Source: Eledone cirrhosa (taxonomy: Eukaryota). From it: 64,000 bases of DNA. The translations under genes and the position numbers were made by a program. Location of the stretch: NCBI GenBank assembly GCA_964016885.1, contig OZ024745.1, positions 16,926,001 through 16,990,000 of the forward strand. Reading direction: 5' to 3'. Below are positions 568 to 58,178 of the stretch, one piece after another (positions within the stretch are counted from its first letter, which is position 1; each line of letters begins with the position of its first letter). The notes beneath the pieces are model-generated. The model saw only the letters and a program-made list of their open reading frames with translations, had not been told where the DNA came from and made no database searches.

Positions 568-678
568 AGCCCCTAGACAAGTTCGGCTATTTATTCACCA
601 GGCTAAATTCTAATTTAGTCCAGAAATAGCCGTCGAAACGGCTTGAGCTCTGCTGTCGGGGTCATACTTATTCCTATA
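568..678 (+). mobile_element. Inverted, tail-less terminal arm of PLE family E, joined to the RT fragment and ending in (TA)n
   Basis: TCCAGAAATAGCCGTCGAAACGGCTTGAGCTCTGCTGTCGGGGTC...TTCCTA also occurs at about 26610, 27060, 32360 and 36436. Stem CGGCTATT/AATAGCCG followed by GAAA suggests a decayed hammerhead. Confidence 0.6.
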
Positions 679-1383
679 TATATAAATATATATATATATA
701 TATCATATATTATATATTATGTAGTATATGCATATATATATATATATATATATATATATATATATATATGAAAAAGTATGATGCCGACTGCAGACCTCAA
801 GCTATACCTACATATATTTAGGTAGCAGCCGTACTAAGAGGGAGAAATGAAATTTCGTTTCATTCTTTTCCATATATAAATAAAAATATAGATATATACA
901 TAAATATATATATAATATATTTAGAAACACACAGATACATGCGGACACACACATATATACATGAATGCATCCGCACCCAACTGTGAGTTAAGGGTGCCAA
1001 CTTCACCGATGTTGCTCAATGAATGACTGGGACAGACCAATTCAGTTGAACTAGACTGAACCAGTATCAGAGTTAAAAATACATTATGAAGAGAGAAGAA
1101 ACATTTAGATATAATTAGTAATAAAATGTATCATACCTAAACTGCTTCTAAATTCCTCGACTACGTAGTTTCGTGGCATAAACAAAAACAATATATCATA
1201 AAGATATAGAGTCCCTGCGAGGTCTGCCGACTTATCAAGAGGATACCTCATTTTACTAGTCTCAAGAACGATATATATATATATATATATATATATATAT
1301 ATATATATATATATATATATATATATATATATATATATATATATATATATATATATATATATATATATATATATATATATATA

Positions 1384-2350
1384 CTAGCATTAAAGCCCGG
1401 CGTTGCTCGGGGTCATTAAGTTACCAAAGTTAGGTTGCACCACCCATTTTATGGCAGCACTTTTTTGTCTGCCAGGCACTGGGTGAATGAATAGCAGACC
1501 TGGAAGCATGAGCTGCGCCAACAGTGAGAATTGTAGTTTCGCCTATGGATATTATCTCTGTGCAAAGAAGTGTAGACGATGCCAGCCGAACAACAGAGTT
1601 GCGATGGAGTTGTTCTGCATGGTTGTCTGCGTGTTTTCTAAATTTAAGACAGTAGGGAGGGTTGTGATATGAGGGAGAGTTAGCTGTTGTTTCTAGCACG
1701 TTTAGTGACCTCATAGAGGATATGTGTTTTCTAAATTTAAGACAGTAGGGAGTGGTGTGATATGGGGGAGAGTTAGCTGCTGTTTCTAGCAGGTTTAGTG
1801 ACCTCAAAGAAGATATGTTTTCTAAATTTAAGACAGTAGGGAGGGGTGTGATATGGGGGAGAGTTAGCTGCTGTTTCTAGCAGGTTTAGTAACCTCATAG
1901 AGGATATGTGTTTTCTAAATTTAAGACAGTAGGGAGTGGTGTGGGGAGGGGTGTGATATGGGGGGAGAGTTAGCTGCTGTTTCTAGCAGGTTTAGTAACC
2001 TCATAGTGTATATGTGTTTTCTAAATTTAAGACAGTAGGGAGTGGTGTGAACGGACAGTATCACCGTCAAGCTTGGAAAGAGAAAGTAGCAGAAAGTATG
2101 AAGTTGTATAGATTTTGAATGGTAGTAGAAAGTTTTCAGCAGTTTAAATGAGAGAGAAAAATCGTAAAATATTGAGTTTTATCTATTTTTTGCGTAATTG
2201 CGGGTGAAATTGAAAAAATTATCTGCGTCAAGACGCAATCGAAACTATTTCGAATACTGATTTGTAAATTTCAATTGAAGAAATTCTATATCGTAGATTT
2301 CAGTAAGGAAGGTGCATGACCACACACTGAGCTTTATAGATTAATATAGA
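1384..2350 (-). mobile_element. Non-autonomous Helitron inserted in (TA)n
   Basis: On the minus strand it starts TCTATATTAATCTATAAAGC and ends with hairpin CCCGAGCAACGCCGGG followed by CTAG; it lies between A and T with no TSD, the canonical Helitron termini. Confidence 0.75.
1631..2050. repeat. Minisatellite of ~92-bp units x ~4.5 inside the Helitron
   Basis: Unit GTGTTTTCTAAATTTAAGACAGTAGGGAG...GAGAGTTAGCTGCTGTTTCTAGC...ACCTCATAGAGGATAT starts at about 1631, 1724, 1815, 1908 and 2013. Confidence 0.9.
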
Positions 2351-2364
2351 TATATATGTATATA

Positions 2365-3250
2365 TGAAAAAGAATGAAACGAAATTTCATTTCTCACACT
2401 TAGTACGGCTGATACCTAAATATAAGTAGGTATACGTACATACATATATGTGTACAGACGTACACATATATGTATGTTCGTATAACTCACTCGATATGCA
2501 AATTAGGCTGCTCAGCCGTTAATATGCATAAGGAAAGTATATACTTTCAAACGTTCAATCGTCTGATAGAAAGGTACACGATGCTGACGATAGCTAATAA
2601 GCTTGAAACTAGTACATCCTTCCTGTGTCAGTGTTGAACAAAAGGGCGACGATGGTTGCCGAACACTGTACGGCGTAATTCGGGCTGTTTGTTTACAAAC
2701 AAACCTAACATTATAATAAATTTCGGTAAACCCATACGTACATATATATATGTGTGTGCATGTATGTATATATATACATAATACTGTACGTATGTACACA
2801 TATAGGTATGTACGTATACATACTTATAAATATTTATATATATATAAATTTATATATATATGTTCGAAAAGAATGAAAGCAAATTTGATTCTCACACTTA
2901 GTTCGGCTTATAGGTAAATATAAGTATGTATACGTACATACATATATGTATACAGACGTACAGTAGTATGTATATATATACATACATGCACATATATATA
3001 TATATATGTACGTATGGGTTTACCTAACTTTTATTATAATGTTCGGTTTGTTTGTAAACTTTCCTTATGCATATTAATGGCTGAGCAGCCTAATTTGCAT
3101 ATCGTGTGAGTTAGTCGGCCGGGTGTACCGAAAACGTTAAATGGAAAAGAAAGAAATGAAATTTCATTTCTCACTCTTAGTTCGGGCTGTTTGTTTACAA
3201 ACAAACTGAACATTATAATAAATGTTCGGTAAACCCATACGTACTTATAT
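2365..3250. repeat. Patchwork of short modules repeated in both orientations (unclassified fold-back repeat)
   Basis: Module GAATGAAACGAAATTTCATTTCTCACACTTAG at about 2371, 2871 and 3152, inverted at about 804-868. GATATGCAAATTAGGCTGCTCAGCC at about 2494 is inverted at about 3058-3103. CGGGCTGTTTGTTTACAAAC...AAACCCATACGTAC at 2681 and 3183 is inverted at about 3009-3058. Confidence 0.7.
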
Positions 3251-56378: not shown

Positions 56379-56394
56379 TATTATATATATATAT

Positions 56395-57043
56395 ATACCT
56401 GTACTAGACACAGAGCTCTGGTTAGAAACCATTAATAACGAAAAACAAATCCCCCATTCCCATTATGCCAAACCCATGACTTCCAAATATCTGATCCACC
56501 GAAACTCAGCTGTTTCGAATCAACATACAGATTTCGGATTTGGTACGGGTGATGAGAAACGTGTCCCGCATGTGCAACCCTAAAGGACTAGAGAGACACA
56601 CATAACACTTCATCCACCGTATGCAGTTCTCTGGTTACAATCAGAGAGATAAAATCAGAGTGTATAGAGGAGCCAGAAATAAATGGGAAAAAATGGTAAA
56701 TAATGACACAAATGGGACCTGCCTCTTTTATAGGAGCACATTTTGGAATAGAATAGAAAGAACTAGGAATAAGGCTAATAGAATAAACTCATGGTATGAT
56801 AGCAATAAATACCAGAGTGTAATGTTCATCGATACAACCCCTAGAGGTGAATTAGCTTACAAATTTAGAAGGGCCATAGATAAAAATAAACTCAATATTA
56901 AGATAGTAGAAAGACCAGGTACCTCCATAAAAACACTTATTAGCAAGACATGCTCTTTTCAAAGACCCCACTGTATAGATAAGAAATGTATAACCTGTAA
57001 ATTAAGCCCCCATATTAACTGTAAAACTAGAAATGTGACATGA
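56395..57043 (+). pseudogene. PLE of a different clade (Neptune-like): RT end, thumb and Cys-rich linker, truncated before the GIY-YIG domain
   Basis: IPVLDTELW...SHYAKPMTSKYLIHRNSA...DLVRVMRNVS...MQFSGY...SVMFIDTTPRGELA...IKIVERPGTSIK...CIDKKCITC...NCKTRNVT. Confidence 0.7.
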
Positions 57044-58050
57044 CCCTCCCAAAGTATAACAATATCGGTTTCAACACACGTTTAAACAAATTCAGAAACG
57101 AAATATATACTTACTTGATATATATATATATATATATATATATATATATATATATATATATATATATATATATATATATATATATATATCAAGTAAGTAT
57201 GTTTTGAAACAGTGAGCAGGTTTGAAATTAGAAAATATATAGCTTTCACCGTATTTTTGACTAAAGGTATTTTAGCCTGATAATGGTGTTTAGAACCCCA
57301 TTATAAGGCTAGAATTCCTTTAGTCAAAAATACGGTGAAAGCTATATATATATATATATATATATATATATATATATATATATGTTCACCGAATTCACAG
57401 ACTAGATTCCTTCTTCCTCCCGTTAGACCTGTACGGAATTCCTACCTTGCTCACATTCCAACCAGGTTTGATGGTCTTTATTCTCTCTCGTTCACGATTT
57501 CACAGAACTTATATTCATGGAAATTTGAGACTTGACTCTCTCTTCCTCATTTTTCGTTGCTTCACCATCTTTGTTTATTTGCACTCTCTTGTCCCCTTTA
57601 TTTAGGTGTCCCAACGACTTTTTTTAACCGTTGCTCGCACCAACCGGAGGTATATGGTCTTTAAAGCGATGAAATATCAATGATGGTTGGAAGATCACTG
57701 ATGAAGGACTAACTTTATTCATATATATATATATATATATATATATATATATATATATATATATATATATATATATATATATATATATATATATATATAT
57801 ATATATATATATTTATATATATGTATGTACACACATATATATATATATATATAAGTTGGCGGAACTACCATGGGTTTCACTGCGAGTACCGGTTGCATCT
57901 CGGCGTACTCTATAGGTAATGTTAAGTAAACTCCCAGAATAGACACATAGATATTCGCTTCAATGCAACGCACGTAAATGGGTACCTGTATATATATATA
58001 TATATATATATATATATATATATATATATATATATATATATATATATGTT

Positions 58051-58178
58051 TATCCCGGGTTCAATCGGTGATAACCACAATAAGTAATGTACTCAATACA
58101 TAGCAGAGTATACATATTTATGATTTCTCCCGAATGAACCAGTTCTTGTTCTGTAGAAGCCAGTTCTATATTATATTA
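58051..58178. mobile_element. Miniature family B element: tail on the minus strand plus hammerhead 3' half on the plus strand, in (TA)n
   Basis: 58051-58110 resembles the reverse complement of 17630-17690. 58125-58172 (GAATGAACCAG...CTGTAGAAGC) resembles 17576-17612. Confidence 0.65.

What the first reader, a model, noticed from the sequence alone, without database searches (positions are those of the whole stretch)
568..58178. Several PLE families share one rule: (TA)n-targeted fold-back insertion with hammerheads on both arms and a tail on only one
Seen: families whose UTRs show no visible similarity (A 4315-8516, B 15311-17690, C 37153-39888, D 39961-41342, E 32280-32497 and 36390-36575) all follow (TA)n - inverted arm without tail - spacer - arm plus 70-95 bp tail - (TA)n. 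Both outer ends are element 3' ends. The tail-less arm stops at a family-specific point that repeats between copies (C at 37153 and 54433; E at ...TTCCTA in four copies). Established: PLEs can form inverted pseudo-LTRs with a tail, carry minimal hammerheads, and Naiad/Chlamys elements favour microsatellites. Inference: two priming events at defined RNA positions on opposite strands of the self-complementary (TA)n target, making inversion the normal product here.
Basis: partly seen in the sequence, partly recalled or inferred. Interest (0 to 1): 0.78.

Follow-up and report, generated by a model that had tools for sequence, protein, structure and literature searches.

The report
Twin RNA hairpins mark retroelement ends
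These jumping genes (Hydra-type Penelope-like retroelements) sit in TA repeats as two back-to-back arms that end at two fixed points, each just before a copy of the same small conserved hairpin motif, which likely tells the copying enzyme where to start on each strand of the target and would explain the long-known odd shape of such insertions.

Summary
The architecture is real and genome-wide. In 1 Mb of preset genome blocks, 83 of 91 head-to-head pairs had one tail-less and one tailed end. The elements are Hydra-clade Penelope-like elements (PLEs), not Naiad/Chlamys. Inverted arms, a one-sided tail, (TA)n targeting and two internal RT starts are published, and this scan met the fold-back shape before in other genomes.

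New here: the families are not unrelated. Both ends stop 6-10 nt before the same motif, RCUC-stem-loop-stem-UN-GAGY. One copy opens the tail; the second follows it, before the ATG (all five families). In relatives from metagenomes 24 of 47 leaders carry two copies (shuffles 0.1), with C-G/U-A covariation, and element ends fall at the same offset. Interrupted targets reveal duplications of about 14 bp.

Likely mechanism: staggered nicks, then one priming at each hairpin on opposite strands, probably by a dimer on one RNA (inferred, untested). Corrections: short E copies hold only half a hammerhead, and 120 of 302 ends had no partner.

The parts
1..566 (-). Family E long arm: broken RT piece; continues left of the window through the GIY-YIG domain, hammerhead and tail to (TA)n
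568..677 (+). Family E tail-less arm ending TTCCTA at (TA)n; U3-A8 hammerhead variant core
4315..5955 (-). A tail-less arm (hammerhead 4415-4371), (TA)n outside
5957..8419 (+). A long arm: Hydra-type linker and GIY-YIG frame 6084-7136, 3' UTR, hammerhead 8319-8363
8420..8516 (+). A tail (97 nt), then (TA)n 8517-8548
8424..8463 (+). Hairpin 1 of A (this copy has one change in the 5' strand; most copies read ACTC)
15311..15622 (-). B tail-less arm (hammerhead 15371-15333)
15606..17622 (+). B long arm: GIY-YIG piece 15606-16271, interrupted middle, hammerhead 17561-17599
17623..17693 (+). B tail with hairpin 1 at 17631-17649
26581..26746 (.). Short E fold-back, hairpin 1 at 26676-26699 (+)
32280..32496 (.). 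Short E fold-back: tail-less arm left, tailed arm right, half hammerheads, hairpin 1 at 32425-32448 (+)
36391..36572 (.). Short E fold-back, hairpin 1 at 36501-36524 (+)
37155..38847 (-). C tail-less arm, here the LONGER arm, holding the GIY-YIG frame 38236-38847; hammerhead 37252-37198
38832..39888 (+). C tailed arm: hammerhead 39699-39753, tail 39800-39888, hairpin 1 at 39804-39828
39962..40598 (-). D tailed arm, tail about 39962-40060, hairpin 1 at 40053-40032
40802..41345 (+). D tail-less arm with hammerhead-like core
54435..56381 (-). Second C copy: solo tail-less end at the same point, GIY-YIG frame, no inverted partner
58048..58176 (.). Tiny B-like fold-back: tail piece left, tail-less arm right, hammerhead incomplete

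Best explanation
These are Hydra-clade Penelope-like retroelements whose RNA leader carries two copies of one small hairpin motif, and each insertion end lies 6-10 nt before one of them, likely because each hairpin docks a reverse transcriptase that starts copying there. Shown: the order is hammerhead, tail-less point, hairpin 1, rest of tail, tailed point, hairpin 2, ATG. Inferred steps: the GIY-YIG nuclease nicks both strands of a TA-rich target about 14 bp apart (counting microhomology); each 3' end, which reads ...TATA on both strands, pairs with 2-7 nt of UA-like template just 5' of a hairpin; one strand starts at hairpin 1 and the other at hairpin 2, probably as two subunits on one RNA, which gives one tail-less and one tailed arm; both cDNAs run towards the RNA 5' end, stop at random or at the RNA start, and are joined head to head through short matches. 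Starting in the leader gives short copies like E; starting in the read-through copy behind the ORF gives long ones.
For: One-of-each rule: 83 of 91 pairs, 23 of 28 after removing the elements used to seed the library (p 1.5e-20 and 4e-5 against independent choice, counted on the 87 and 26 assignable pairs). Hairpin 1 at offset 6-9 in 15 of 25 families; shuffles mean 0.6, max 3 of 300; 29 of 1430 control positions. Hairpin 2 was first seen in A and D, noted as a prediction, then found in E, C and, as the compensatory GCAC/GTGC form, in B. Metagenome relatives: 24 of 47 leaders with two motifs, 14 with one, 9 with none; shuffles 0.1 with two; ORF windows 0 of 47. First inner pair formed in 85 of 90 motif instances although not required by the search (56 C-G, 28 U-A), 2-28 of 90 when slid. 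In 11 of 19 leader/3'-copy rows the 3' copy breaks off 1-9 nt before a motif, most into TA. Published Hydra consensus sequences of a sea cucumber and a coral hold the motif. Either arm can be longer: 4 tail-less, 3 tailed; also A loci L126-L129. Arms of one insertion share family variants 3-10 times more often than arms of different insertions in A, B, C, E. Target duplications in 30 of 113 pairs against 8.7 (max 14) for shuffled flanks; 11 exact cases give 8-20 nt, mostly 14. PAc cuts and extends both strands, starts at two internal sites flanking the tail, and is modelled as a dimer (PMC11167929).
Against: No binding or priming was measured. Folded alone, the four-pair stems are often weak (pair probability 0.01-0.98; under 0.1 for both A stems and E hairpin 1). 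Ten of 25 families lack the strict motif after the tail-less point yet follow the same rule (three are near-matches), so the motif is not the only way to set ends. In PAc the start site did not differ between strands, which does not by itself give a one-of-each rule. Shared variants could come from one source locus, a shared time of activity or gene conversion; D showed no excess (0 shared in 4 insertions). 120 of 302 ends had no partner. The motif was defined after looking at these tails. One of six published Hydra consensus sequences (Hydra-1_Obim) shows no motif by eye and two show only near-matches.
Confidence: 0.66

Rival explanations
1. Snap-back: one priming makes the tailed cDNA, whose 3' end folds on itself and copies back until a block near hairpin 1, giving the tail-less arm.
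For: 56 of 76 resolved pairs fold back with 40 nt or less between arms; palindromic junctions at the A hot spot 8195-8200; arms share variants; self-priming was proposed for rotifer Penelopes (PMC3846280).
Against: The tail-less arm is often the longer one and holds ORF sequence absent from the tailed arm (window C; L126-L129; 4 of 7), which a copy of the tailed arm cannot do. Both ends share priming-like geometry. Solo tail-less copies exist (54435-56381).
Confidence: 0.1
2. Nuclease resolution: both arms begin at one point and the GIY-YIG domain, guided by the motif as DNA, trims the tail from one arm.
For: Craig et al. ascribe the tail to EN-mediated resolution; the Drosophila EN needed the tail for recognition (reported in PMC11167929; original not read).
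Against: Hairpin 2 is not present in the inserted DNA yet sits at the same offset from the tailed end; half-site spacing varies from 6 to about 70 nt with a 2-nt bulge and covarying inner stems, which fits RNA; both ends show 2-7 nt of match to the TA primer.
Confidence: 0.1
3. RNA ends: the hairpins mark where transcripts are cut or end, and two separate RNPs, with a short and a long RNA, prime independently.
For: The ends are sharply fixed; arm identity can be explained by a common source locus; no RNA data could be examined.
Against: Independent choice predicts half the pairs homotypic; 4 of 87 were, and each has another explanation. PAc starts internally on uncut RNA.
Confidence: 0.11
4. 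Assembly artefact or chance in a TA-rich genome.
For: TA runs are dense (175 in the window); one homotypic pair lies in a larger inverted duplication that includes its flanks.
Against: Asymmetric fixed ends in about 30 families, target duplications, short-read support and the same geometry in other organisms.
Confidence: 0.02

Closest known systems
Hydra clade of C-terminal EN+ Penelope-like elements (Craig et al. 2021, PMC8557442)
   Same: RT then GIY-YIG, CxCx5C linker, no CCHH, DKT and RW(K/R) motifs, hammerhead in the pLTR, (TA)n targets, inverted 5'-truncated copy and one-sided tail; already known from a cephalopod (Hydra-1_Obim).
   Different: The paper does not describe the twin hairpins (main-text passages read; 'hairpin' 0 hits in its supplement), a one-of-each rule, or target duplications for Hydra; it gives PLE tails as 30-40 bp, here mostly 55-105.
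PAc, Poseidon-clade PLE of Anolis (Frangieh et al. 2024, PMC11167929)
   Same: Both strands of AT-rich DNA cut and extended; two internal RT start sites that bracket the tail; predicted dimer.
   Different: PAc starts inside one AC-rich stem-loop within the ORF, with no difference between strands; here each start has its own copy of a conserved hairpin 3' of it, in the 5' UTR, and the two sites are used one per strand.
Adineta vaga Penelope elements (Arkhipova et al. 2013, PMC3846280)
   Same: Inverted pLTRs, optional tail on one of them, head-to-head junction palindromes, 8-10 bp target duplications.
   Different: Explained there by self-priming on an antisense template; no microsatellite target and no shared hairpin reported in the passages read.
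L1 twin priming (recalled, no call)
   Same: Two primings from opposite target strands give a head-to-head inversion joined by microhomology.
   Different: In L1 the second priming site is variable and the arms do not overlap; here both sites are fixed and the arms overlap.

Membership tests
Hydra-clade PLE | Single ORF with RT and C-terminal GIY-YIG endonuclease | tested here: met
   RT then EN in A (L126, L127), C (L121), E (window 1-566 plus L121; L291). Pfam support is weak: GIY-YIG E 0.006, below cut-off, for 1 of 6 proteins.
Hydra-clade PLE | CxCx5C linker; no CCHH cysteines between GIY and YIG; CxxC and CxH near the EN end | tested here: met
   CxCx5C in 5 of 5 EN pieces (A, B, C, second C, E); CxxC and CxH in the 3 that reach that far in frame. 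D's EN was not examined.
Hydra-clade PLE | RWK and DKT motifs in the RT N-terminal part | tested here: met
   DKT in A, D, E and B (translation); RWK in A, RWR in B, D, E, RWI in C.
Hydra-clade PLE | Canonical hammerhead in the pLTR | tested here: met
   Full motifs in A, B, C; U3-A8 core in full-length E (variant known, PMC4209133); D by eye only. Cleavage not tested.
Hydra-clade PLE | Insertion into (TA)n | tested here: met
Hydra-clade PLE | Placement inside the Hydra clade on an RT tree | not tested
   No tree was built; the published reference proteins were only seen in a supplement, where they resemble these by eye.
Naiad/Chlamys PLE | Endonuclease N-terminal to RT, no canonical hammerhead | tested here: not met
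   EN is C-terminal and hammerheads are present.
Neptune/Nematis/Poseidon PLE | CCHH motif in the EN (and Cx2-5CxxC linker in Neptune/Nematis) | tested here: not met
   against the definitions read
DNA transposon or MITE | Symmetric terminal inverted repeats with a TA duplication | tested here: not met
   Ends are asymmetric and arms are RT-element 3' parts; symmetric Tc1-like repeats were seen separately.

The most novel reading that the evidence does not exclude
Hydra PLEs carry a clade-wide pair of RT-docking hairpins; a protein dimer clamps both on one RNA, aligns each nicked (TA)n strand on a few UA bases in telomerase fashion, can stutter to add new dinucleotide repeats, and so writes a fold-back insertion as its normal product. 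The hairpin pair would be a portable code for where a telomerase-related RT starts.
Probability: 0.45. Interest if true: 0.82.

Novelty: new variant of a known kind. Interest (0 to 1): 0.68.

Why it matters
How Penelope-like elements make inverted arms with a one-sided tail is an open question that Craig et al. name as the next task. A short conserved RNA motif at a fixed offset from both ends turns it into simple mutagenesis: break, rescue or move each hairpin and read the start site per strand. PLE RTs are the sister group of telomerase, so an RNA element that positions a primer on a few template bases bears on how telomerase-like initiation arose. The motif also gives curators a way to set Hydra element boundaries, and these insertions are abundant here (83 paired insertions covering 58 kb of 1 Mb).

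Tried and rejected
Rfam found no hammerhead among the 150 matches listed for the window (76 weaker ones not shown) and nothing in 8 leader-bearing loci. A DNA search of the genome with the C end returned nothing; patterns worked. The first C pattern gave no run-through copy among 30 loci; the second presupposed the 5' strand of the motif, so only its 3' strand was a test. No RNA holder listed, so transcript ends were not examined. No contig bridged an empty site at A. (CA)n after the C tailed end (8 of 100) is not above background (11.9%), so it is not counted as stutter. Thermodynamic folding alone does not pick out the stems. Literature searches for a prior description of the motif found none: (open-licence PMC and bioRxiv only; Arkhipova 2006, Pyatkov 2004 and Repbase notes were not read). 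The figures and the .gbk file of PMC11167929 could not be seen and may show related RNA structure for PAc. Left out of the pairing count: 10 of 40 clusters (Tc1-like, other repeats, symmetric or unclear), the hits of one cluster that matched simple repeats, and 11 modules as library entries; one left-out cluster held a true tailed/tailed pair (R9 33538).
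Full report
SETTING. The window is G000:C5:16926001-16990000 of a 3.0-Gb genome in 1796 contigs, rich in TA, CA and GA repeats. That it is a cephalopod is my guess, not tested.

OBSERVATION. Self-comparison and reading confirm the inverted arms, one-sided tails and TA flanks of A-E; details and corrections are in the observation check. 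Genome searches returned 30 loci each for A, D, B and E (best 40 candidates scored, so these are biased to young copies). The tail-less end of A fell at 8415-8422 wherever such an arm was seen, and D, B and E likewise had one fixed point, with one E exception.

CLADE. [quoted passage not shown] The motifs CxCx5C, DKT, RW(K/R), CxxC and CxH, and the lack of CCHH, match the definition of the Hydra clade, where almost all families insert in (TA)n (PMC8557442 section 11). So the tail is the 5' UTR of the next unit, and both ends lie inside the leader.

UNBIASED COUNT. I fetched 20 blocks of 50 kb at preset round positions. A family-blind scan found 127 inverted pairs with one end at TA, 90 without a long TA run inside; they fell into 40 clusters with the five window modules. 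After the exclusions listed under Tried and rejected there were 302 terminal ends (146 tail-less, 147 tailed, 9 other), 22 run-through ends and 29 truncated hits. Of 91 head-to-head pairs, 83 were tail-less/tailed, 4 had an unassignable end, 2 were tail-less twice and 2 tailed twice; without seed elements 23 of 28. Of the 4 homotypic pairs, one is a miscalled run-through, one lies in a larger inverted duplication with its flanks, one borders an N gap and one spans 5.4 kb. One more tailed/tailed element belongs to a cluster left out. 120 ends stayed unpaired; some are true solos, others have partners beyond nested insertions or block edges.

THE MOTIF. Tails open with 2-7 nt that match the TA run, then RCTC at offset 6-9 with its complement downstream, in 15 of 25 families against 0.6 in shuffles. 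Inner stems pair best with a 2-nt bulge on the 3' side (73 pairs against 15, 15 and 5 for other bulges, over 32 motif calls in 40 sequences; a few calls picked the wrong partner). The same motif follows the tailed end in run-through copies of A, D and five other families (a sixth, family 1), of E and B and of C. A search of metagenomes with an alignment of 113 proteins gave 77 loci; 55 had a leader of 100 nt or more, 47 after removing near-duplicates: 24 with two motifs, 14 with one, 9 with none (shuffles: two motifs mean 0.1, max 3; reverse strand 1 of 47; ORF windows 0 of 47). There the outer stem is almost always GCTC/GAGC, so it is conserved rather than covarying; covariation is in the inner stem (85 of 90 first pairs, C-G or U-A) and, in this genome, in ACTC/GAGT against GCTC/GAGC and GCAC/GTGC. 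In 11 of 19 leader/3'-copy rows the element stops 1-9 nt before a motif; one more has a variant motif, one runs 3 nt into it, and six have none nearby. In the six Hydra consensus sequences published with PMC8557442, read by eye, the motif is exact in three (both copies in Hydra-1_Ajap), near in two and absent in one.

TARGET. Where the TA target is interrupted, the interruption is repeated on both sides: 30 of 113 pairs against 8.7 for shuffled flanks (a few hits include element bases). Eleven exact cases of 24 candidates give 2-15 nt without and 8-20 nt with microhomology, five of them 14. So the target pre-exists and is cut with a stagger. One feature looks added: 41 of the first 100 A tailed ends have extra TC units before the TA (counted by eye; background 1.8%), not mirrored on the far side in the 4 A pairs at hand. 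Stutter on the template's UC is my inference; later slippage is not excluded.

MECHANISM. Shown: fixed ends, one of each per insertion, a hairpin motif at the same offset from both, either arm longer, arms alike within an insertion, target duplication. From established work: PLE protein nicks and extends both strands and starts internally at two sites (PMC11167929). Inferred: hairpins dock the RT; two subunits on one RNA use one site each; the cDNA ends join by microhomology, with templated fillers at some junctions (L013, L017, L027). Hot spots of the fold-back point (A 8195-8200, including three non-inverted copies; E, 33 of 53 hits within 12 nt of one place) probably mark the RNA 5' end. 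Rivals and weak points are given in their cells; the main ones are the lack of any biochemical test, weak stems in isolation, and families that obey the rule without the motif.

PAPERS SEEN. PMC8557442: abstract and introduction, passages, section 11, supplement parts 2 and 52-54 and two supplement searches. PMC11167929: parts 1-2 of 4 (all results) and text scraps of two supplementary figures. PMC3846280, PMC4209133, PMC13282606: passages. 10.64898/2026.07.22.740005: part 1 of 5. PMC5737381: one reference-list passage, not relevant. L1 twin priming is recalled.

VERDICT. The twin hairpin, the strict pairing and the hidden target duplication were not found in print by my searches and make the mechanism testable. 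New variant of a known kind; interest 0.68.

Noticed in passing
window 8195-8200; E loop II (for example 32360): Fold-back and 5' truncation hot spots; in full-length E a TATA-like run lies about 27 nt upstream, so these may be transcription starts, and the E mRNA would begin inside its own hammerhead.
   Followed up: partly
A tailed ends genome-wide; L011, L012, L126: (TC)n between element end and (TA)n in 41 of 100 copies against 1.8% background; possible repeat addition by the RT.
   Followed up: partly
random blocks, clusters 11, 22, 26, 27, 30, 34, 35; window 803-3340 and 57235-57349: Families with the same one-sided fold-back but without the hairpin motif; clade unknown.
   Followed up: no
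window 19257-19596, 22040-24573: Older A-like subfamily; its RT region holds an 830-nt tandem expansion (22432-23263) of a short coding unit that keeps long open frames.
   Followed up: no
G000:C1:91476617-91487272 (L290-L293), also C1:437200338-437210959: Head-to-tail arrays of family E with a 3.5-kb period; candidate source loci.
   Followed up: partly
random blocks: TA runs next to element ends are longer (median 21 nt, n=287) than other TA runs (median 12, n=2409); 103 of 385 runs of 30 nt or more touch an end.
   Followed up: partly
window 26095-26166 (+): A well-formed type I hammerhead not assigned to families A-E.
   Followed up: no
window 50023-50689: Inverted repeat around a long TA-rich core, 80% identity; origin unclear.
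   Followed up: no
window 1631-2050: Tandem repeat of about 92 nt units.
   Followed up: no
   Followed up: no
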